40,646 bases of DNA from a virus (lineage: Duplodnaviria; Heunggongvirae; Uroviricota; Caudoviricetes): positions 1-40,646 of the IMG/VR virus record IMGVR_UViG_2675903413_000001, one strand, 5' to 3'. How positions within the stretch are numbered: position 1 is the first letter of the stretch; each line of letters begins with the position of its first letter. Below, piece after piece: positions 5,934 to 16,176 of the stretch. Below the pieces are notes generated by a model, which made no database searches, was not told the origin of the DNA, and was given only the letters and a program-made list of their open reading frames with translations. Both the position numbers and the translations under genes were made by a program.

Positions 5934-6206
5934 TCATCTCGCCGTCAGTTGTTTTGATTTCCTGTAGCCTGCCGCGTAAAGAGCTACGTTTGGAAGACAA
6001 GTTGAGCCTTCATATTTTCTGGTCAGCGTTGTCAGTGTTATTACTTCTGCTCTCATTGCTGGTTTGCGCTTACATTGCAAGACCACTCGTGAGGGGGTTG
6101 GTCTGTGTAGCTTGTCGGAGCTAATCGCCTCCTGACTTTGCAGGTTTGCGCGACGAGCTCTACGACGAGAAGCTGAGGTGCCTTTAAATTCTGTTTTTCT
6201 GGACAT
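5934..6206 (-). CDS. N: N-type transcription antitermination protein (P22 gene 24-like)
   Basis: Arg-rich motif SASRRRARRANL near N-terminus; C-terminus LPNVALYAAGYRKSKQLTAR matches remembered P22 gp24; SD GGGAGG upstream of ATG 6206. Confidence 0.8.
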   Translation of the reverse strand: MSRKTEFKGTSASRRRARRANLQSQEAISSDKLHRPTPSRVVLQCKRKPAMRAEVITLTTLTRKYEGSTCLPNVALYAAGYRKSKQLTAR

Positions 6207-6302
6207 AGATTCCTCCCGAATAAACTTTGGTGATGCAATCTCGAAGCTCTTCCTGAGACGGTTGCTTCGGCATTGCATCCCACAGCTCATGTGGTTGGGT
6301 GA

Positions 6303-6351
6303 TCTGGCTTTTCAGCCACGTAGTCGAGTGTTCGACGTTGTTTAAAGAGCA
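6303..6351 (-). promoter_or_regulatory. nutL: nutL: boxA-like TGCTCTTTAAACAA (6338..6351) and boxB-like hairpin TGGCTGAAAAGCCA (6303..6316)
   Basis: Read on minus strand between pL and N; boxA resembles rrn boxA TGCTCTTTAACAA; boxB has a GAAA(A) loop. Confidence 0.55.
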
Positions 6352-7830: not shown

Positions 7831-8478
7831 TTACCCAAACGTCTCTTCAGGCCACTGAGCCTTAACTACCTTGCCTATGATTCGGCAGCTATGGTCGCAA
7901 TCCAGGGTTCTGTATGCCGGGTTTAAAGGCACCAGGTAACTAACCCCTGCATCCTTCTCATACTTCTTGAACGTTGCCTCTGAATCACCATTTGCAGAAG
8001 CTACGCAGAAATCCCCAGACTCTACCGGCTCGGCAGGGTCTACGAGTATTAGCATACCCTCAGGAAAGCTCGGCCTTACGCCCTGTGGCGCAGTCATAGA
8101 ATGGCCTTTCACCTCAAGCCAGAAAGCTTTTTCGCTGGCTTTTGTGGTCGTTGGGACCCATGCCTTTGCATCGCTGGCTGTGTAGCTTCCCACCTCCGAA
8201 AACGGCCCGGCCTGCACTGAAGAAAATAACGGGTACTCATATTGGCGAAATACGGCGTCTGAATCCTCGCCAAACATTATTTTTGCCGGAGATACGCCGA
8301 GTGCCGCCCCAAGAACCAGCGCGTCATCCGCGCTAACCTTTCTTGTTCCTAACTCGTAGTTACCCAGGCGTGAAGGCGCAGCCCAGCCGCAAAGCTTGGC
8401 CAATTGAGCCTGGCTAAGTCCTTTAGCTTCTCTAAGGGACTTGATCCTTTCCCCGATAATTTCATGCATCGTTTTCAT
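7831..8478 (-). CDS. cI: CI/C2-type prophage repressor (HTH plus LexA-like S24 peptidase domain)
   Basis: 215 aa; N-terminal HTH ([11 protein letters not shown]), C-terminal domain with GDSM and catalytic Lys region typical of autocleaving repressors; divergent from cro. Confidence 0.85.
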
Positions 8479-8489
8479 CCCTTAAATGT

Positions 8490-8556
8490 AACACGCAACG
8501 TGATTGAACTCTGTACACGAATTGAGGTTGACTGTTAATCACAAATTGTGTGTAAT
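8490..8556. promoter_or_regulatory. OR operators with PR promoter (-35 TTGACT 8528..8533, -10 TGTAAT 8551..8556)
   Basis: Palindromes CACGcaaCGTG (8492..8502) and ATCACAaatTGTG (8538..8550) between the divergent repressor and cro. Confidence 0.55.
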
Positions 8557-8586
8557 GGGTGTGTGATTAATGCTAGGGAGACCGCA

Positions 8587-8805
8587 ATGAACAAAATTGC
8601 CCAGCAGCGAAAAAAAATCGGAGTTTCGCAAGCTGTACTAGCTTCGGCAATTGGTTGGGGGCAATCCCGCATCGCCAACTATGAGCTGAATATCCGTACT
8701 CCTGGCCTTAACGATTGCCGAATGATCGTAGAAGGCCTCAGGAAGTTAGGGTGCCAATGTTCTTTGGATGATGTTTTCCCTCCATCCAGTAACAAAGCCG
8801 CCTAA
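8587..8805 (+). CDS. cro: Cro-like HTH regulator (72 aa)
   Basis: ATG 8587 with SD GGGAG; HTH GVSQAVLASAIGWGQSRIANYE; first rightward gene after OR. Confidence 0.7.
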   Translation: MNKIAQQRKKIGVSQAVLASAIGWGQSRIANYELNIRTPGLNDCRMIVEGLRKLGCQCSLDDVFPPSSNKAA

Positions 8806-8813
8806 GCAGTACC

Positions 8814-8858
8814 CGCTCTTTTCAAAATGGACATTCGTCCTACGTCGCTGAAAAGCGA
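8814..8858 (+). promoter_or_regulatory. nutR: nutR: boxA-like CGCTCTTTT (8814..8822) and boxB-like hairpin TCGCTGAAAAGCGA (8845..8858)
   Basis: Located between cro and cII; same architecture as nutL. Confidence 0.55.
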
Positions 8859-8943: not shown

Positions 8944-9240
8944 ATGACACAAGCAAGTTACAGCAAGCCAACACAGCGAGAAATTGATCGCGCAGAAACA
9001 GATTTACTCATCAACCTGTCAACGCTTACCCAGCGCGGTTTGGCAAAGATGATTGGCTGTCATGAATCGAAGATAAGCAGAACGGACTGGAGATTTATTG
9101 CTTCGGTCTTGTGTGCTTTCGGAATGGCATCAGACATCAGTCCGATTAGCAGGGCTTTTAAGTATGCGCTTGATGAAATCACAAAGAAAAAATCCCCGGC
9201 CGCCACCGAGGATTTTAAGCAAATTGATATGCAATTCTGA
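8944..9240 (+). CDS. cII: CII-type transcriptional activator
   Basis: 98 aa; C-terminus KKKSPAATEDFKQIDMQF matches remembered lambda CII KKRPAATERSEQIQMEF. Confidence 0.8.
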   Translation: MTQASYSKPTQREIDRAETDLLINLSTLTQRGLAKMIGCHESKISRTDWRFIASVLCAFGMASDISPISRAFKYALDEITKKKSPAATEDFKQIDMQF

Positions 9241-9271: not shown

Positions 9272-9439
9272 TATGACAAAACGTCGTAAGAAATACCAGG
9301 AAAAAGAAGAGATTCGACACCCTGATTCACCTGAGGGATTAGTGGTAGCCGCAGCAAATAACAGGGCGTTCGCAGAGCGCCTTGTTGGTGTTTACAGACT
9401 AGCCAAAGCAGGAGTGAAACATGGGCGTCGTTAAGTTAG
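9272..9439 (+). CDS. Possible small ORF (55 aa) between cII and O; low confidence
   Basis: Manual translation MTKRRKKYQEKEEIRHPDSPEGLVVAAANKQ...; good SD AGGAG; overlaps start of O-like gene. Confidence 0.2.
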
Positions 9440-10311
9440 CTGATTACAGGCATAACCCTGTACAACATCAGGAGGCATCCAGTATGGGGTATGTCTCTAT
9501 ACACCGCCAGTTTATGGACAGCAGGCTCTATAAGGACTCTCAGGCAGTACATCTTTGGCTTCACTTAATCCTCAAGGCTAATCACGAATCTACTGTCGTC
9601 AATACGGATATCGGTCCGATAACTGTTGATCGCGGTCAGATGATAACTGGACGCCCGTCGCTGGTCAGAGAAACATTCATCCCCGACAACAAAGTTCGGA
9701 GCTTATTACGGACTTTTGAGTCGAAAGGGATGCTTAATATTTGCTCGATGGGGAAGAAATTTAGCCTGTTTACAATCGTTAAATATGACGATTTTCAGGC
9801 AAAAAATTGTCCAACGGTTGTCCAACGGTTGTCCAACGCAAACACCAGTAATGGCGCGGCTCTCAGCGGAGATTGTCCAACGGTTGTCCAACGGTTGTCC
9901 ATAAACAATAATATAAATAATATCTCTAATACTGACGTATTAGAGAGTGCCACAGCAGACAAAAAGTCTGACAAGAAAAAACCTTCCGTCAGCTGTCAGG
10001 ATGTTGTCGATGCTTACCACAAAATCATTCCTGAAGCGCCAAGAATCCGCGCACTGAATGACAAGCGTAAAAACCAGATCCGAACGTTCTGGCGCAAAGC
10101 CGGAGTGATAACCCGCCAGCTTGACGGGCATGGGTTCACGATGCAGGACTGGAGAAATTATTTGAGCTACGTAGGCGAAAATTGCCGATGGATGTTCGAA
10201 GAGCGCCCAAACCATCAGCGCGGAACCGTCTGGCACAAAAAGGGATTTGATTTCCTGCTTAACGATAATACCTACCTGAAAGTTCGTGAGGGTGAACACG
10301 ATGACCGATAA
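9421..10311 (+). CDS. O: Replication initiation protein, lambda O-like replisome organiser with internal origin
   Basis: 296 aa; contains the iteron array; followed by overlapping helicase gene; alternative start at 9484. Confidence 0.7.
   Translation: MGVVKLADYRHNPVQHQEASSMGYVSIHRQFMDSRLYKDSQAVHLWLHLILKANHESTVVNTDIGPITVDRGQMITGRPSLVRETFIPDNKVRSLLRTFESKGMLNICSMGKKFSLFTIVKYDDFQAKNCPTVVQRLSNANTSNGAALSGDCPTVVQRLSINNNINNISNTDVLESATADKKSDKKKPSVSCQDVVDAYHKIIPEAPRIRALNDKRKNQIRTFWRKAGVITRQLDGHGFTMQDWRNYLSYVGENCRWMFEERPNHQRGTVWHKKGFDFLLNDNTYLKVREGEHDDR
9806..9903. repeat. ori: Replication origin iterons: six copies of TTGTCCAACGG in two groups of three
   Basis: aattgtccaacggttgtccaacggttgtccaacgc (9806..9840) and gattgtccaacggttgtccaacggttgtccat (9871..9903), inside the O-like gene as in lambda ori. 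Confidence 0.8.
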
Positions 10312-11737
10312 TTTTTATGCGCCGCCCCATAGCATCGAGGCAGAGCAGGCGGTGATTGGTGGATTGCTTCTGGATGATGACAGCAGTGAGCGCGTCCAGA
10401 AAGTTCTGGCGATGCTGAAGCCTGATTCATTTTACAGCCGACCACACAAAATCCTTTTCGAAGAAATAACCAGAATGCACCGGGAGCAAAAGCCAGTAGA
10501 TGGCCTGACGCTTTTCGATGAACTGGAGCGTAAATCGTTAACGGCGTCTGTTGGCGGTTTTGCTTATATCGCTGAGATCGCAAAGAACACGCCAAGCGCC
10601 GCAAACATCGTTGCCTATGCAATGCAGGTTCGCGAAACCGCAATGGAACGCTACGCCATCAACCGCATGACTGAAGCGACGGAATTGCTCTATTCCCGCA
10701 ACGGAATGACTGCGACGCAGAAGTACGAAGCTATTCAGGCGATTTTCACGCAACTGACAGACCATGCAAAAACCGGATCGCGTCGCGGCCTTCGCTCATT
10801 TGGTGAGGTCATGGAAGACTGGGTTAGCGACCTTGAGAAACGATTTGACCCATCAGGCGAACAACGGGGAATGAGCACAGGTATCCCATCGCTGGACAGG
10901 ATGCTGTCACCGAAAGGTCTGGTGAAAGGCTCTCTGTTTGTCATTGGCGCTCGCCCTAAGATGGGGAAAACGACGCTATACAGCCAGATGGCAATCAATT
11001 GCGCAGTGCATGAGAAAAAGCCCGCTTTGATGTTCAGCCTTGAAATGCCAGGTGATCAGATACTGGAAAAACTGGTAGGGCAGAAGTCTGGTGTTAACCC
11101 GAATATTTTTTACCTTCCGGCGACAAATGACGCTGATGACGGCTATCAGGGTGATTACGATGGTGACTTCAACAGGGCGATCGAAACAGCCAATCGCTTG
11201 AGTGAAATCGACCTGCTTTACATCGACGACACGCCGGGATTATCTCTGGCTCAAATCGTCAGCGAAAGCCGTCGAATCAAGCGAGAAAAAGGATGTGTTG
11301 GCATGATTCTGGTCGATTACCTGACACTAATGACTGCTGAGAAGGCCGATCGCAACGACCTTGCTTACGGCATGATCACCAAAGGACTGAAGAACCTTGC
11401 CAAAGAGCTTGATTGCGTTGTTGTGCTTCTGACGCAGCTTAACCGCGCACTGGAAAGCAGAACCAATAAACGCCCATTACCAAGTGACTCACGAGATACA
11501 GGGCAGATTGAACAGGATTGCGATTATTGGGTCGGGATCCATCGTGAAGGCGCTTTTGATGACAGTGTTCCACCTGGTGAAACTGAACTAATCCTTCGTC
11601 TCAATCGTCATGGCAATACCGGCACGGTGTATTGCATTCAGGCAAATGGCGCTATTTATGACACAGACCAACAGTCTGCTGAAATGCGCCGCCGTGAACG
11701 CGAGGAACCGCAGTCCAAGAAGAAAGGAGGATTCTGA
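10301..11737 (+). CDS. DnaB-like replicative helicase (P22 gene 12-like)
   Basis: Walker A GARPKMGKTT; DnaB N-terminal motif SIEAEQAVIGGLL; ATG 10301 with SD GAGG. Confidence 0.85.
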   Translation: MTDNFYAPPHSIEAEQAVIGGLLLDDDSSERVQKVLAMLKPDSFYSRPHKILFEEITRMHREQKPVDGLTLFDELERKSLTASVGGFAYIAEIAKNTPSAANIVAYAMQVRETAMERYAINRMTEATELLYSRNGMTATQKYEAIQAIFTQLTDHAKTGSRRGLRSFGEVMEDWVSDLEKRFDPSGEQRGMSTGIPSLDRMLSPKGLVKGSLFVIGARPKMGKTTLYSQMAINCAVHEKKPALMFSLEMPGDQILEKLVGQKSGVNPNIFYLPATNDADDGYQGDYDGDFNRAIETANRLSEIDLLYIDDTPGLSLAQIVSESRRIKREKGCVGMILVDYLTLMTAEKADRNDLAYGMITKGLKNLAKELDCVVVLLTQLNRALESRTNKRPLPSDSRDTGQIEQDCDYWVGIHREGAFDDSVPPGETELILRLNRHGNTGTVYCIQANGAIYDTDQQSAEMRRREREEPQSKKKGGF

Positions 11738-12006
11738 TGAATAAAAAACAATTAGCCATTCTCGAAAAGGCATGGGATGCACAAATATCATGCGCTTTGA
11801 AAGAACAGGCACTACCAATAATCCAGACCAAATCGAAAATAGCCAGGCAGTTATGCGATGACGGATTCCTGAACGAAGTTGAGATTACGCGCCAGATGGT
11901 AACGTTCAAAGGGTATGAGATAAATCATCATGGTATAGCGGCGTATTGCTCCCATCTTCCTGATGACGTTGACATTGATGAAATGGAAAGGGAGATGAAG
12001 CAATGA
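11737..12006 (+). CDS. Hypothetical nin-region protein (89 aa)
   Basis: ORF track; ATG overlaps helicase stop. Confidence 0.55.
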   Translation: MNKKQLAILEKAWDAQISCALKEQALPIIQTKSKIARQLCDDGFLNEVEITRQMVTFKGYEINHHGIAAYCSHLPDDVDIDEMEREMKQ

Positions 12007-12031
12007 CCATCTACATCACTGAGCTAATAAC

Positions 12032-12064
12032 AGGCCTGCTGGTAATCGCAGGCCTTTTTATTTG
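12032..12064 (+). terminator. Rho-independent terminator in nin region (tR2-like)
   Basis: Stem AGGCCTGC/GCAGGCCT (8 bp) followed by TTTTTATTT. Confidence 0.6.
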
Positions 12065-12079
12065 GGGGAGAGGGAAGTC

Positions 12080-12262
12080 ATGAATCTGGACGAGCAAGAT
12101 GCACAAACTATTAGCTCATACATAAGGGCATCAAGACCAGATTACAAAGGTCCGGTATTCGTAGATTTATCTCGCCTTGAAGAGATTTACATGTGGAAAG
12201 CAAGGTTACTTACGCATTTTGTTATTCGAACGATGACTAGCAACATTACAAAACCAATGTAA
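12080..12262 (+). CDS. Hypothetical nin-region protein (60 aa)
   Basis: ORF track 12062..12262; ATG 12080 with SD GAGGGAAG. Confidence 0.5.
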   Translation: MNLDEQDAQTISSYIRASRPDYKGPVFVDLSRLEEIYMWKARLLTHFVIRTMTSNITKPM

Positions 12263-12277
12263 CTGGAAGAGGTGAAT

Positions 12278-12493
12278 ATGAGCACACTCGCAGACCTTAT
12301 TCATGCCGATATGGCTGAAGATGGAGCAAGGCGTAATAGGTACTGGAAATCATCGAGACTTCCAGTTTGTGAAAGATTCAACCACAGGCCAAAACCAAAA
12401 CGTAGCCGACGAGACAAAGTGTTGAAAAAACTCATGCAAATTAACATGGCTGGTTTTGTCAGATTCGTGAGTGAAACGACTAACGGGGATTGA
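12278..12493 (+). CDS. Hypothetical basic protein (71 aa)
   Basis: ORF track; ATG 12278 with SD GGAAGAGG. Confidence 0.5.
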   Translation: MSTLADLIHADMAEDGARRNRYWKSSRLPVCERFNHRPKPKRSRRDKVLKKLMQINMAGFVRFVSETTNGD

Positions 12494-12494
12494 T

Positions 12495-12809
12495 ATGGAC
12501 GAATCAAGAAAGAAGTTTGAGGAATACGTTGCCAAAAAATTGAGATTACCATTCGAGATGATAACCGAGGCAAGAAATGGTGATAGGTACTTCGCATTTT
12601 CAAGCATGGATATTCGTCACTCCTTAAATGAGTGGTGGACTTTATGGCAGGCATCGCGAGCAGATATTGAAATAACCGCGCCAAAGTTTATCGACAGCAG
12701 AGAAGCATTAGCCAAAGGGTTTACTGTTGATTATTCCAATGGCTTCGGTGATGGAATGGATGCTTATGAGGAAAACATCCGCGCTGCTGGAGTCAAAGTA
12801 AAGGAGTAA
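12495..12809 (+). CDS. Hypothetical nin-region protein (104 aa)
   Basis: ORF track 12471..12809; ATG 12495 directly after upstream stop. Confidence 0.5.
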   Translation: MDESRKKFEEYVAKKLRLPFEMITEARNGDRYFAFSSMDIRHSLNEWWTLWQASRADIEITAPKFIDSREALAKGFTVDYSNGFGDGMDAYEENIRAAGVKVKE

Positions 12810-12811
12810 CG

Positions 12812-13222
12812 ATGAAGCAGACAATCTTCCTCCGAAGTAAGCAACAACAGCAAGCTGCAATCAACGCCATCCTCGCAACACCACTCGATAAAGACAAGCC
12901 AGTCACCATCCGCATTATTGACTACAAGCGCAACCTTGACCAGAACGCAAAATTTCACGCGATGCTGGCGGATATCGCACGTCAGGTTCAATGGTGCGGC
13001 AAATGGTTAAAACCAGAACAATGGAAGGTTTTGTTGATCAGCGGTCATGCAGTGGCAACAAAGCAGGAAGCTGATGTTTTGCCCGGGCTTGAAGGCGAAT
13101 ACGTCAACATTCGCGAAAGCAGCGCGCAGATGAGTGTGAAGCGTATGGCAAGTCTTATCGAGTACACAACAGCCTGGGCTATTGGTCAGGGTGTCAGATT
13201 TACCGACAGGAGGTACGAATGA
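12812..13222 (+). CDS. ninB: NinB-type recombination protein
   Basis: 136 aa; motif [32 protein letters not shown] resembles remembered lambda NinB. Confidence 0.75.
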
Positions 13223-13799: not shown

Positions 13800-13968
13800 T
13801 CCATCCCAATCCCTCCAATACCAGAAAGAAAGCGTCGAGCGGGCTTTAACGTGCGCTAACTGCGGTCAGAAGCTGCATGTGCTGGAAGTTCACGTGTGTG
13901 AGCACTGCTGCGCAGAACTGATGAGCGATCCGAATAGCTCAATGTACGAGGAAGAAGACGATGGCTAA
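13792..13968 (+). CDS. ninF: NinF-like Cys-rich small protein (58 aa)
   Basis: [44 protein letters not shown] matches remembered lambda NinF. Confidence 0.7.
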
Positions 13969-14572
13969 ACCAGCGCGAAGACGATGTAAAAACGAAGAAT
14001 GTCGGGAATGGTTTCACCCTGCATTCGCTAATCAGTGGTGGTGCTCTCCAGAGTGTGGAACAAAGATAGCACTCGAACGACGAAGCAAAGAACGCGAAAA
14101 AGCGGAAAAAGCAGCAGGGAAGAAACGACGACGAGAGGAGCAGAAACAGAAAGATAAACTGAAGATTCGAAAACTCGCCTTAAAGCCCCGCAGTTACTGG
14201 ATTAAACAAGCCCAGCAAGCCGTAAACGCCTTCATCAGAGAAAGAGACCGCGACTTACCATGTATCTCGTGCGGAACGCTCACGTCTGCTCAGTGGGATG
14301 CCGGGCATTACCGGACAACTGCTGCGGCACCTCAACTCCGATTTGATGAACGCAATATTCACAAGCAATGCGTGGTGTGCAACCAGCACAAAAGCGGAAA
14401 TCTCGTTCCGTATCGCGTCGAACTGATTAATCGCATCGGGCAGGAAGCAGTAGACGAAATCGAATCAAACCATAACCGCCATCGCTGGACTGTCGAAGAG
14501 TGCAGGGCCATCAAGGCGGAGTATCAGCAGAAACTCAAAGACCTGCGAAATAGCAGAAGTGAGGCCGCATGA
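13961..14572 (+). CDS. ninG: NinG (Rap) recombination-associated protein
   Basis: 203 aa; Cys motifs and size consistent with lambda NinG. Confidence 0.75.
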
Positions 14573-14775
14573 CGTTCTCAGTAAAAACCATTCCAGACAT
14601 GCTCGTTGAAGCATACGGAAACCAGACAGAAGTAGCACGCAGACTGAAATGTAGTCGCGGTACGGTCAGAAAATACGTTGATGATAAAGACGGGAAAATG
14701 CACGCCATCGTCAACGACGTTCTCATGGTTCATCGCGGATGGAGTGAAAGAGATGCGCTATTACGAAAAAATTGA
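14569..14775 (+). CDS. ninH: NinH small DNA-binding protein
   Basis: 68 aa, [37 protein letters not shown] matches remembered lambda NinH. Confidence 0.75.
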
Positions 14776-15418
14776 TGGCAGCAAATACCGAAATATTTGG
14801 GTAGTTGGCGATCTGCACGGATGCTACACGAACCTGATGAAAAAACTGGAGACGATAGGATTCGACACCAAAAAAGACCTGCTTATCTCGGTTGGCGATT
14901 TGGTTGATCGCGGTACAGAGAACGTCGAATGCCTGGAATTAATCACATTCCCCTGGTTCAGAGCTGTACGTGGAAACCATGAGCAAATGATGATTGATGG
15001 CTTATCAGAGCGTGGAAACGTCAATCACTGGCTGCTAAATGGCGGTGGCTGGTTCTTTAATCTCGATTACGACAAAGAAATTCTGGCTAAAGCTCTTGCC
15101 CATAAAGCAGAAGAACTTCCGTTAATCATCGAACTGGTGAGCAAAGGTAAAAAATATGTCATCTGCCACGCCGATTATCCTTGTGACGAATACGAGTTTG
15201 GAAAGCCAGTTGATCATCAGCAGGTAATCTGGAACCGCGAACGAATCAGCAACTCACAAGACGGGATCGTGAAAGAAATCAAAGGCGCGGACACGTTCAT
15301 CTTTGGTCATACGCCAGCAGTGAAACCACTCAAATTTGCCAACCAGATGTATATCGATACCGGCGCAGTGTTCTGCGGAAACCTCACATTGATTCAGGTA
15401 CAGGGAGAAGGCGCATGA
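14753..15418 (+). CDS. ninI: Ser/Thr protein phosphatase (lambda NinI-type)
   Basis: Metallophosphatase motifs GDLHGC, GDLVDRG, GNHE; start MRYYEK. Confidence 0.85.
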
Positions 15419-16038
15419 GACTCGAAAGCGTAGCTAAATTTCATTCGCCAAAAAGCCCGATGATGAGCGACTCACCACGGGCTACGGCTTCTGACTCTCT
15501 TTCCGGTACTGATGTGATGGCTGCTATGGGGATGGCGCAATCACAAGCCGGATTCGGAATGGCTGCATTCTGTGGTAAGCATGAACTCAGCCAGAACGAC
15601 AAACAAAAGGCTATCAACTATCTGATGCAATTTGCACACAAGGTATCGGGGAAATACCGTGGTGTGGCAAAGCTCGAAGGAAATACTAAGGCAAAGGTGC
15701 TGCAAGTGCTCGCAACATTCGCTTATGCGGATTATTGCCGTAGTGCCGCGACACCGGGCGCAAGATGCAGAGATTGCCACGGTACTGGCCGGGCCGTTGA
15801 TATTGCCAAAACAGAGCAGTGGGGGAGAGTTGTCGAGAAAGAGTGCGGAAGATGCAAAGGCGTCGGCTATTCCAGGATGCCAGCAAGCGCCGCATATCGC
15901 GCTGTAACGATGCTAATCCCAAACCTTACCCAACCCACCTGGTCACGCACTGTTAAGCCGCTGTATGACGCTCTGGTGGTGCAATGCCACAAAGAAGAGT
16001 CAATCGCAGACAACATTTTGAATGCGGTCACACGTTAG
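15415..16038 (+). CDS. Q: Late-gene antiterminator Q (lambda-type)
   Basis: 207 aa, reads as lambda Q by recollection ([19 protein letters not shown]...), Cys-rich zinc motif. Confidence 0.85.
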
Positions 16039-16080: not shown

Positions 16081-16109
16081 TTGACTTTTTGAATAAAGTT
16101 GGGTAAATT
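16081..16109 (+). promoter_or_regulatory. Late promoter PR' (-35 TTGACT, 17-bp spacer, -10 TAAATT) with qut region
   Basis: ttgactttttgaataaagttgggtaaatt immediately downstream of Q, as in lambda. Confidence 0.65.
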
Positions 16110-16143
16110 TGACCCAACGATGGATAAATGCACTCGTTAAATA

Positions 16144-16176
16144 AAGCCCTGAGTTAATAGCTCGGGGCTTTTTCAT
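16144..16176 (+). terminator. tR'-like rho-independent terminator about 30-60 nt downstream of PR' start
   Basis: 9-bp stem AGCCCTGAG/CTCGGGGCT with one G-U pair, followed by TTTTTCATTT. Confidence 0.6.

What the first reader, a model, noticed from the sequence alone, without database searches (positions are those of the whole stretch)
12003..12083. 26-codon hydrophobic micro-ORF with an embedded intrinsic terminator in the nin region
An ORF (MTIYITELITGLLVIAGLFIWGRGKS) is coupled by ATGA overlaps to the genes on both sides, and its coding sequence contains an 8-bp-stem hairpin plus T-run (12032..12064). It is either a translated small membrane peptide or simply a tR2-like terminator whose reading frame is coincidental.
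Basis: seen in the sequence. Interest (0 to 1): 0.2.

Follow-up and report, generated by a model that had tools for sequence, protein, structure and literature searches.

The report
Lambda tR2 terminator inside ninA ORF
This 81-base stretch is the already well-known tR2 transcription terminator of phage lambda, sitting inside the short, named and apparently translated ninA reading frame, so the finding is real but ordinary.

Summary
Window 12003..12083 is a 26-codon ORF joined by ATGA overlaps to both neighbours. It contains an 8-bp GC-rich hairpin (12032..12055) followed by a T-run.

It is not new. The 81 nt are 80/81 identical to phage lambda 40567..40647, between ren and ninB. The hairpin and T-run are letter for letter the lambda tR2 intrinsic terminator used in termination biochemistry. 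The ORF is the named gene ninA (identical peptide filed as "NinA protein"; PHROG 5907). The element occurs in about 420 phage records and in 2053 of 5426 complete E. coli genomes.

Comparison of about 150 relatives shows both layers are maintained:
- **Hairpin:** its synonymous sites vary about 14-fold less than the adjacent 5' codons. It survives when an HNH endonuclease gene splits ninA. In HK97-type phages it is replaced by an unrelated terminator hairpin of identical length, in frame.
- **ORF:** all 7 unrelated upstream gene ends carry their own Shine-Dalgarno motif. In 14 of 15 downstream contexts the frame stops within -14..+9 nt of the next start.

Published reporter data show the lambda ninA start is active and lowers tR2 efficiency only from about 0.87 to 0.72. 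The either/or is therefore false: it is a terminator inside a translated bridging ORF. A function for the peptide itself is unproven.

The parts
11737..12006 (+). Upstream 89-aa ORF (unknown function, phrog_2239). Its TGA overlaps the ninA ATG (ATGA).
   Evidence: Homologue of ST104 ORF30.
11990..11994 (+). Shine-Dalgarno-like GGGAG, 8 nt before the ninA ATG, inside the 3' end of the upstream gene.
   Evidence: Sequence. It is one of 7 independent upstream contexts that all carry an SD-like 4-mer 5-10 nt from the ATG.
12003..12083 (+). ninA ORF, 26 codons, MTIYITELITGLLVIAGLFIWGRGKS.
   Evidence: It is 80/81 nt identical to lambda 40567..40647 with an identical peptide. The exact peptide is filed as 'NinA protein'. 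It matches phrog_5907 at E = 1.6e-19.
12032..12039 (+). tR2 hairpin, 5' arm AGGCCTGC.
12040..12047 (+). tR2 hairpin loop TGGTAATC.
   Evidence: No synonymous variation was seen in the loop in 139 loci.
12048..12055 (+). tR2 hairpin, 3' arm GCAGGCCT.
   Evidence: Stem variants 33T, 51T and 52T keep G.U pairing.
12055..12063 (+). U-run of tR2 (TTTTTATTT), the region where RNA is released. It is read as Leu-Phe-Ile in ninA.
12064..12077 (+). Purine-rich GGGGGAGAGGGAAG: the SD for the downstream gene, read as Gly-Arg-Gly-Lys at the end of ninA.
   Evidence: Sequence. It is shared by several downstream contexts.
12080..12262 (+). Downstream 60-aa ORF (phrog_21123, unknown function). Its ATG overlaps the ninA TGA (ATGA).
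   Evidence: The same gene follows the hairpin in L019 and L008.
5934..6290 (-). N-like antitermination protein gene, the presumed factor that lets RNA polymerase read through tR2.
   Evidence: phrog_271 at E = 4.9e-25. Its role here is inferred from lambda biology.
8814..8858 (+). nutR-like site between cro and cII: boxA-like CGCTCTTTT (8814-8822) and boxB-like hairpin TCGCTGAAAAGCGA (8845-8858).
   Evidence: Read. A matching nutL-like GCTCTTTA (6350-6343) plus GGCTGAAAAGCC (6317-6306) lies on the minus strand. This is pattern resemblance only and was not tested.
15415..16038 (+). Q-like late antiterminator gene, the last gene of the operon. Its expression is gated by tR2.
   Evidence: phrog_127 at E = 6.6e-83. 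A terminator-like site follows at 16143..16171.

Best explanation
Window 12003..12083 is this lambdoid phage's copy of the lambda ninA/tR2 module.

(1) The hairpin 12032..12055 plus U-run is the intrinsic (Rho-independent) terminator tR2 of the early-rightward operon. It lies after the replication genes (O-like, DnaB-like, orf89) and before the nin genes and Q. RNA polymerase not modified by the N-like antiterminator mostly stops here, which delays Q and late-gene expression. N-modified polymerase reads through.

(2) The terminator is embedded in a genuinely translated 26-codon ORF, ninA. This ORF is one link of the 'chain of interlinked genes' of the nin region.
- Ribosomes leaving the upstream gene, or binding the SD in its 3' end, start at the overlapping ATG.
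- On read-through transcripts they translate through the hairpin and stop on the start codon of the next gene, handing translation on (a bridging, coupling role).
- On transcripts that ended at tR2 the ninA stop codon is missing, because it lies 17 nt beyond the U-run. The message is therefore non-stop and is expected to be rescued and degraded.
- Because the ATG is only 29 nt before the stem, a newly initiating ribosome rarely catches the polymerase, so termination stays efficient.

Shown: identity with lambda tR2/ninA, conservation patterns, SD and stop/start geometry, and the lambda reporter data. Inferred: that the same holds in this phage's own upstream context, N-dependence here, the bridging purpose, and non-stop decay in a real infection. 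The peptide's own sequence is probably mostly a by-product of the signals it overlaps.
For: **Identity**
- 80/81 nt match lambda 40567..40647, with an identical 26-aa ORF between ren and ninB.
- The hairpin and T-run equal the lambda tR2 template CAGGCCTGCTGGTAATCGCAGGCCTTTTTATTTGG used for cryo-EM and in vitro termination.
- GenBank records annotate this spot as ninA, tR2 terminator or rho-independent terminator.

**Operon position**
- The order is cI, cro, cII, O, DnaB-like, orf89, ninA/tR2, NinB, NinG, NinI, Q, with an N-like gene on the other arm.

**RNA-level constraint on the hairpin**
- Synonymous variants were seen in 5 of 139 loci across hairpin codons 11-18, against 64 of 127 across codons 2-10.
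- Three of four stem variants keep pairing as G.U.
- The hairpin is retained intact after an HNH gene insertion that splits ninA.
- HK97-type phages carry an unrelated hairpin of equal stability (-16.1 vs -16.2 kcal/mol) plus a U-run at the same place. A third variant differs from it by a compensatory U-A to C-G pair.

**Translation of the ORF**
- 7 of 7 unrelated upstream contexts have an SD 4-mer 5-10 nt from the ATG, against a 6-8% background. Naive P is about 1e-8.
- In 14 of 15 downstream contexts the stop lies -14..+9 nt from the next start.
- The HK97-type replacement swaps exactly 20 nt for 20 nt (7/20 identical) and keeps the frame.
- Codons 2-10 show 7 synonymous and 6 conservative non-synonymous variant types, against 26-28% synonymous expected (P about 0.03-0.04).

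**Experiment (Li et al., NAR 2016, PMC4824070)**
- With the native lambda ninA SD and AUG, tR2 efficiency is 0.721 and the upstream reporter is halved.
- The SD mutant gives 0.862 and the AUG-to-AAG mutant 0.870, with upstream expression restored.
- tR2 efficiency is 0.916 with a stop codon 28 nt upstream.
Against: - There is no direct measurement for this phage. Its SD context (GGGAG, 8-nt spacer, in orf89) differs from the lambda ren context used in the reporter work.
- The lambda ribosome-profiling paper cited for NinA (Liu et al. 2013) and Cheng et al. 1995 could not be read here.
- I found no report that the NinA peptide has been detected, and none of a phenotype. The nin region is dispensable.
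- RefSeq/PGAP does not annotate the ORF in E. coli genomes.
- A minority of relatives lack an intact ORF: the HNH-split forms, and L029, L060 and L116.
The P values are therefore rough.
- N-dependence here rests on an N-like gene and nut-like motifs only.
Confidence: 0.88

Rival explanations
1. Terminator only. The hairpin is tR2 and the 26-codon frame is an untranslated accident of a short spacer between two genes.
For: - The hairpin is the most conserved part and survives when ninA is split.
- The hydrophobic and basic peptide composition follows from reading a GC stem, a U-run and a purine-rich SD (sequence).
- PGAP ignores the ORF, and the nin region is dispensable.
Against: - 7 of 7 independent upstream SDs.
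- Stop/start proximity in 14 of 15 downstream contexts.
- Frame-preserving, same-length hairpin replacement.
- SD and AUG mutations of lambda ninA change reporter output.
- An excess of synonymous change in codons 2-10.
Confidence: 0.07
2. True dual coding. NinA is a functional single-pass small membrane protein in its own right, and the terminator has been fitted into its coding sequence.
For: - The N-terminal MTIYITEL[IVM][TA]G is kept with mostly synonymous or conservative change.
- Three different 'bodies' all read as about 13-18 hydrophobic residues followed by basic residues: lambda type, HK97 gp56 type, and the 34-aa form created by the HNH insertion.
- The HNH-borne tail stays open for 25 codons in AT-rich DNA, where by my estimate only about 10% of frames would.
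- A PHROG family exists.
Against: - The statistical signal is weak (P about 0.03).
- The C-terminal tails differ freely with the downstream junction.
- The L13Q change in the hydrophobic core occurs in 7 loci.
- Within HK97 gp56 the invariant part is exactly the hairpin-encoded part, as expected from RNA constraint.
- U-rich and GC-rich signals give hydrophobic codons anyway.
- I found no reported phenotype, and the region is deletable.
Confidence: 0.25
3. Leader-peptide-like attenuator. Translation of ninA, coupled to the upstream gene, is a regulatory device that lets a closely following ribosome melt the tR2 stem and tune read-through, as in the pyrBI leader where the terminator lies inside the leader ORF.
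For: - Geometry: the terminator lies inside a short translated ORF.
- Translation from the ninA AUG lowers efficiency from about 0.87 to 0.72, and ribosomes stopping 5-13 nt before the stem suppress tR2 strongly, to efficiencies of 0.15-0.53.
- The pyrBI leader has the same topology (Table S9).
- There is a sub-threshold Rfam Trp_leader match at 11955..12061.
Against: - The effect measured is small, and tR2 'retained most of its efficiency'.
- With a stop codon 23-28 nt upstream, as in the native ATGA arrangement (26 nt), efficiency is 0.83-0.92.
- No alternative antiterminator hairpin appears in the folds.
- There is no run of regulatory codons, and no obvious pause-inducing U-tract upstream.
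- The Rfam hit scores 21.5 bits against a gathering score of 41 (E = 0.25).
- The known control of tR2 is N antitermination.
Confidence: 0.1

Closest known systems
Phage lambda tR2 intrinsic terminator with the ninA ORF (lambda 40567..40647; also P22 ninA)
   Same: The sequence is essentially identical: 80/81 nt, with one synonymous ATC/ATT difference. It has the same peptide, hairpin, U-run and downstream SD, the same place in the pR operon, and the same ATGA interlinking.
   Different: Only the neighbours differ. Upstream is an 89-aa ORF30-like gene after a DnaB-type helicase instead of P and ren. Downstream is a 60-aa unknown ORF instead of ninB, and NinB follows about 730 nt later. The ninA SD is therefore a different sequence.
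HK97 gp56 / HK544 gp48 module (same PHROG 5907)
   Same: It has the same first 32 nt (MTIYITELITG), the same position after the helicase gene, a terminator-like hairpin plus U-run of equal stability, the same frame, and Leu-Phe-x-Trp over the U-run.
   Different: The 20 nt forming the hairpin are unrelated (7/20 identical), giving a 10-bp stem with a 5-nt loop in a different register. The ORF is 32 codons with an acidic tail.
pyrBI leader and other leader-peptide attenuators
   Same: A short translated ORF and an intrinsic terminator overlap. A ribosome close behind the polymerase can suppress the hairpin.
   Different: There is no antiterminator alternative structure, no regulatory codons and no known metabolic signal. 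The measured effect of ninA translation on tR2 is modest, and control is by the N antiterminator instead.
ATGA-interlinked gene chain of the lambdoid nin region (Kroger and Hobom 1982, as cited)
   Same: ninA is one link of this chain. Start and stop codons overlap on both sides, as is typical for nin genes.
   Different: It is the only link that carries a transcription terminator inside its coding sequence.

Membership tests
Lambda tR2 (intrinsic, Rho-independent terminator) | GC-rich stem-loop immediately followed by a U-run | tested here: met
   An 8-bp stem (6 G-C), an 8-nt loop, then TTTTTATTT. Folds at -16.2 kcal/mol, z = -3.4.
Lambda tR2 (intrinsic, Rho-independent terminator) | Sequence identity with the characterised lambda tR2 | tested here: met
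   The hairpin and U-run are identical to lambda NC_001416 and to the tR2 template sequence printed in bioRxiv 10.1101/2022.08.30.505822.
Lambda tR2 (intrinsic, Rho-independent terminator) | Location in the early-right operon, between the replication genes and the nin/Q genes | tested here: met
   PHROG assignments give cro, cII, O, DnaB-like, then the element, then NinB, NinG, NinI and Q.
Lambda tR2 (intrinsic, Rho-independent terminator) | Actually terminates transcription, and is overridden by N antitermination | not testable with these tools
   For lambda, efficiency is about 0.9 in vivo. Here there is only an N-like gene and nut-like motifs.
NinA (PHROG 5907; lambda/P22 ninA) | Peptide homology | tested here: met
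   phrog_5907 at E = 1.6e-19 over 26/27 positions. The exact sequence is filed as 'NinA protein', UniRef K7PHM1.
NinA (PHROG 5907; lambda/P22 ninA) | Start overlapping the upstream stop and stop overlapping the downstream start (interlinked nin chain) | tested here: met
   ATGA at 12003-12006 and at 12080-12083.
NinA (PHROG 5907; lambda/P22 ninA) | Is translated | tested here: inconclusive
   An SD is present here and in all 7 upstream contexts. The lambda start site is active in a reporter.
NinA (PHROG 5907; lambda/P22 ninA) | A defined molecular function of the peptide | not testable with these tools
   I found none in the literature searched. The PHROG is labelled 'unknown function', and there is no Pfam or NCBIfam model.
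Leader-peptide transcription attenuator | Mutually exclusive antiterminator/terminator structures | tested here: not met
   Folds show only the terminator hairpin, extended by A/U pairs.
Leader-peptide transcription attenuator | Match to a curated leader RNA family | tested here: not met
   The only hit is Trp_leader at 21.5 bits, against a gathering score of 41, E = 0.25.
Leader-peptide transcription attenuator | Translation of the short ORF substantially controls termination | tested here: not met
   From the literature rather than my own test: efficiency is 0.72 with ninA translation and 0.86-0.87 without.

The most novel reading that the evidence does not exclude
The ORF is kept not for its peptide but as a built-in 'non-stop trap' and coupler. 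Transcripts that end at tR2 lack the ninA stop codon, so they are non-stop messages subject to ribosome rescue by tmRNA and to rapid decay. This would lower replication and cII-region expression from polymerases that were not N-modified. Only read-through transcripts would yield full NinA and pass ribosomes on to the nin genes. A stronger variant is that NinA is in addition a functional small membrane protein, making this a conserved three-layer overlap of terminator, SD and peptide.
Probability: 0.25. Interest if true: 0.4.

Novelty: already known. Interest (0 to 1): 0.1.

Why it matters
As a discovery it matters little. tR2 is one of the most used model terminators, and ninA has been named since the 1980s.

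The check has three modest uses:
- It shows the scan correctly spotted a real dual-use element.
- It flags that ninA is unannotated in RefSeq E. coli genomes (2053 of 5426 complete genomes carry it). People who use "tR2" with its natural upstream 40-50 nt therefore import an active translation start.

If the non-stop-trap or membrane-peptide reading were true, it would add a small new layer to lambda early regulation.

Tried and rejected
- **Peptide homology search:** I used exact-sequence cluster look-up and PHROG, Pfam and NCBIfam scans instead.
- **Papers not held:** Liu et al. 2013 (lambda ribosome profiling) and Cheng et al. 1995 (nin-region terminators) could not be read. PMC5737525 does not mention ninA.
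- **Rfam:** there is no terminator family hit, only a sub-threshold Trp_leader match, rejected as chance or generic terminator resemblance.
- **Genome-contig scan:** a degenerate N-terminal pattern gave 21 loci. Most are verbatim phage lambda, including its ren end, in assemblies of unrelated bacteria. I treated these as contamination and excluded them. Only Escherichia and Shimwellia loci were informative.
- **71-nt fold:** z = -0.66, uninformative because flanking sequence dilutes the signal. It was replaced by 42-nt folds.
- **First site-variation script:** it had an off-by-one in the hairpin anchor. It was redone, and only the corrected numbers are used.
- **Covariation between hairpin types:** a formal test between lambda-type and HK97-type hairpins was not attempted. 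The two stems pair in different registers and are not positionally homologous.
- **'Hairpin-free' 34-aa variant:** I considered it as independent proof of a peptide and rejected that. It is the 5' stump of ninA reading into an inserted HNH element, and the hairpin sits about 690 nt downstream.

Full report
**1. The observation**

- An ATG at 12003 opens a 26-codon frame, MTIYITELITGLLVIAGLFIWGRGKS, closed by TGA at 12081-12083.
- The upstream 89-aa ORF (11737..12006) ends in the TGA of ATGA at 12003-12006.
- The downstream 60-aa ORF starts at the ATG of ATGA at 12080-12083.
- The terminator scan reports a stem at 12032..12055 (8 pairs, 6 G-C, 8-nt loop) followed by TTTTATTTGG.

As a bare motif this is not beyond chance. 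One search found 16 such sites in 10 kb against 11.1 +/- 3.3 in shuffles, and a 71-nt fold gives z = -0.66. The 42-nt element alone folds at -16.2 kcal/mol, z = -3.4.

**2. What it is**

The 81 nt match phage lambda NC_001416 40567..40647 at 80/81. That is the gap between ren and ninB, and lambda has the identical 26-aa ORF with the same ATGA overlaps. The single difference is a synonymous ATC/ATT.

The hairpin and T-run are identical to the "lambda tR2" template sequence printed in a cryo-EM study of intrinsic termination.

GenBank records label this spot in several ways:
- ninA or NinA: P22, epsilon34, Sf101, mEp234, HK630, Bp96115.
- "tR2 terminator": Lahn1.
- "rho-independent terminator": 933W, Emek, mEp235.

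The exact peptide is filed as "NinA protein" (UniRef K7PHM1), and the P22 form as Q38675. It belongs to PHROG 5907, of unknown function. It has no Pfam or NCBIfam model.

A phage-L genome paper lists ninA among the lambda and P22 nin genes. It recalls the ATGA-interlinked architecture first described by Kroger and Hobom in 1982.

The element occurs in 421 of 50,697 phage records. It also occurs in 2053 of 5426 complete E. coli genomes, with up to 6 copies per genome. There PGAP annotates only the neighbours.

**3. Context in this window**

PHROG scans give a standard lambdoid early region.

| Coordinates | Strand | Assignment |
|---|---|---|
| 5934-6290 | - | N-like antiterminator |
| 7831-8478 | - | cI-like repressor |
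| 8548-8805 | + | cro-like |
| 8944-9240 | + | cII-like |
| 9421-10311 | + | O-like |
| 10286-11737 | + | DnaB-like helicase |
| 11737-12006 | + | orf89 |
| 12003-12083 | + | ninA/tR2 |
| 12080-12809 | + | three small unknown ORFs |
| 12812-13222 | + | NinB |
| 13961-14572 | + | NinG |
| 14678-15418 | + | NinI |
| 15415-16038 | + | Q-like |

A strong terminator-like site follows at 16143-16171.

boxA/boxB-like motifs lie after cro (8814-8858) and upstream of the N-like gene (6350-6306, minus strand). This is resemblance only. The element therefore sits exactly where tR2 sits in lambda.

**4.

I collected about 150 loci with two anchors, plus hand-picked GenBank records. One anchor was the ORF's 5' end, which is unbiased for what follows. 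The other was the hairpin, which is unbiased for what precedes.

*Hairpin*
- In 5'-anchored loci, hairpin codons 11-18 carry only 6 variant types.
- Their synonymous variants occur in 5 of 139 loci. In hairpin-anchored loci, codons 2-10 carry synonymous variants in 64 of 127 loci. That is about 14-fold less synonymous diversity in the hairpin.
- No loop third position varies.
- Of four stem variants, three (33T, 51T, 52T) keep a G.U pair. Only 52A, in 2 loci, breaks a pair.
- In 7 of 129 hairpin-anchored loci an AT-rich insertion of about 690 nt has split ninA just before the stem. The insertion carries a 203-aa HNH_3/AP2 endonuclease gene. The hairpin and U-run are kept intact directly after the HNH stop codon.
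- In HK97/HK544-type phages the 20 nt forming the hairpin are replaced by 20 unrelated nt (7/20 identical). These form a different 10-bp hairpin of equal stability (-16.1 kcal/mol, z = -4.6), again followed by a U-run.
- A third form, L084 (-15.3 kcal/mol), differs from the HK97 type by a compensatory U-A to C-G pair.
- Within HK97 gp56 variants the hairpin-encoded residues are the invariant ones.
- Terminator function is thus the most strictly kept property.

*Frame*
- The ATG is preceded by seven unrelated upstream gene ends: ren, two helicase types, the ORF30-like gene and others.
- Each has its own GGAG-type 4-mer 5-10 nt upstream, against 6-8% of positions or ATGs in the window. Naive P is about 1e-8.
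- Downstream there are about 15 different continuations. In 14 of them the ninA frame stops within -14..+9 nt of the next gene's start. The junctions seen are ATGA, GTGA, GTGGCTGA, ATGGTTAA, TAAATG, or a stop followed 4-6 nt later by a start. One continuation is an in-frame fusion.
- Some of these contexts share ancestry. My rough estimate for the independent ones is still well below 1e-5 (inference).
- The HK97-type hairpin swap preserves length and frame.
- Codons 2-10 show 7 synonymous variant types and 6 non-synonymous ones, all conservative (T/N, I/V, T/S, I/M, T/A). About 26-28% synonymous would be expected (P about 0.03-0.04).
- Disruptions are rare: L029 and L060 are single-base indels and L116 is a TGG-to-TGA change.

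Counts are descriptive and P values are rough.

**5. Experimental knowledge**

Li et al. (NAR 2016, PMC4824070) placed lambda tR2 with increasing lengths of its natural upstream sequence behind a reporter. [quoted passage not shown] They also note that tR2 lies 30 bp after its AUG and 16 bp before its stop.

| Construct | tR2 termination efficiency |
|---|---|
| Stop codon 8 nt upstream | 0.246 |
| Stop codon 13 nt upstream | 0.526 |
| Stop codon 18 nt upstream | 0.734 |
| Stop codon 23 nt upstream | 0.829 |
| Stop codon 28 nt upstream | 0.916 |
| ninA SD + AUG present | 0.721 (upstream reporter halved) |
| SD mutated | 0.862 (upstream expression restored) |
| AUG changed to AAG | 0.870 (upstream expression restored) |

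The authors attribute the halved upstream reporter to non-stop mRNA decay. They conclude that the start site "is not weak". They also conclude that a terminator within the first ~100 nt of an ORF escapes ribosome suppression, because the ribosome has not yet caught the polymerase.

In the native arrangement the upstream stop codon lies 26 nt before the stem, in the high-efficiency range.

From memory, not verified here:
- Cheng et al. (Science 1991) showed that tR2 activity depends on stem sequence as well as stability. This would fit the strong nucleotide conservation.
- nin deletions removing tR2 make lambda N-independent.

**6. Mechanism**

*Shown*
- The element is lambda tR2 inside ninA.
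- Both the hairpin and the ORF's translation signals are evolutionarily maintained.
- In lambda the terminator is about 0.9 efficient, and the ninA start is active with only a modest effect on termination.

*Inferred for this phage*
- Unmodified polymerase from pR stops at 12059-12064, and N-modified polymerase passes.
- On read-through RNA, ribosomes coupled from orf89, or recruited by GGGAG at 11990-11994, translate ninA and melt the stem. They stop on the ATG of the next gene, whose SD (12064-12077) lies inside ninA's last codons.
- On terminated RNA, ninA has no stop codon, so rescue and decay follow.

Most of the peptide can be read as a by-product of the signals it overlaps:
- The stem codes for G-L-L...A-G.
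- The U-run codes for L-F-I.
- The purine-rich SD codes for G-R-G-K.

Only MTIYITELIT lies outside known signals.

**7. Rivals**

- **Terminator with an untranslated, accidental frame.** Contradicted by section 4 (frame) and section 5. Confidence 0.07.
- **Functional membrane peptide.** Not excluded. It is supported weakly by the N-terminal substitution pattern. It is also supported by the fact that all three alternative bodies are hydrophobic with a basic end, including the HNH-borne tail that is not forced by a hairpin. It is weakened by free variation of the tails, an L13Q core variant in 7 loci, dispensability of the region, and the by-product argument. Confidence 0.25.
- **Leader-peptide attenuator.** The topology resembles pyrBI. 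However, there is no alternative structure and no regulatory codons, only a sub-threshold Rfam hit, and a small measured effect. Confidence 0.1.

**8. Novelty and score**

Rating: already known, interest 0.1.

The only mildly new points are comparative: the same-length hairpin cassette swap, the HNH insertion that spares the terminator, and the independent SDs. There is also the practical note that ninA is missing from RefSeq annotation.

Noticed in passing
L019 6334..7079 (also L103, L008 = phage phi330, L009 = phage PA28, and Stx2a_WGPS6 hit H96): A ~690-nt AT-rich insertion with a 203-aa HNH_3/AP2 endonuclease gene sits inside ninA, between about codon 9 and the tR2 stem. The terminator is kept, with the HNH stop (TAA) ending 1 nt before the stem. 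The ninA stump reads on as a new 34-aa hydrophobic ORF that overlaps the HNH start. That 34-aa peptide is seen on more than 1000 contigs. It looks like a free-standing homing endonuclease targeting ninA. By Li et al.'s data, a stop this close to the stem should weaken tR2.
   Followed up: partly
L010, L011 (HK544 gp48), L057, L088, L098, L170; L084: HK97-type phages keep the first 32 nt of ninA but carry an unrelated terminator hairpin of exactly the same length (20 nt for 20 nt) in frame. L084 has a compensatory variant of it, one base shorter, which fuses the frame to the next gene.
   Followed up: partly
L155, L157, L159-L165, L167, L168, L172-L174 (genome contigs): Verbatim phage lambda sequence (ren end, ninA, ninB) appears in draft assemblies titled Pseudomonas, Oceanobacillus, Bradyrhizobium, Psychrobacter, Shewanella, Nocardioides and others. 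Several contigs for which the record title gives coverage show coverage of about 1 or lower, and three are about 48.4-48.5 kb. This is almost certainly lambda DNA contamination or spike-in.
   Followed up: no
Protein cluster of HK97 gp56 (P0005-P0019): Many NCBI records name the 32-aa HK97 gp56/NinA homologue 'histone H1', an evident annotation error that has propagated across E. coli, Salmonella and Shigella genomes.
   Followed up: no
E. coli complete genomes: The 81-nt ninA/tR2 element is present in 2053 of 5426 complete E. coli genomes, with up to 6 copies. In the rows listed PGAP annotates only the neighbours (ren or helicase, NinB), never the ORF or the terminator.
   Followed up: partly
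window 8814..8858 (+) and 6350..6306 (-): Paired boxA-like (CGCTCTTTT / GCTCTTTA) and boxB-like GAAA-loop hairpins (TCGCTGAAAAGCGA / GGCTGAAAAGCC) lie after cro and upstream of the N-like gene. They are probably nutR and nutL of this phage.
   Followed up: partly
window 16081..16171 (+): A promoter-like site (16081-16109) is followed by the strongest terminator-like hairpin of the region (16143-16171, 13 pairs), just downstream of the Q-like gene. This is the expected pR'/tR' arrangement for Q antitermination.
   Followed up: no
window 11955..12061 (+): Sub-threshold Rfam match to Trp_leader (21.5 bits against a gathering score of 41, E = 0.25). It probably reflects a generic terminator-plus-short-ORF resemblance, not homology.
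   Followed up: yes
window 12080..12809 (+): Three small ORFs of unknown function (phrog_21123, phrog_1785, phrog_343) lie between tR2 and NinB, where lambda has ninB directly. The mosaic junction is exactly at the ninA stop / next start.
   Followed up: no
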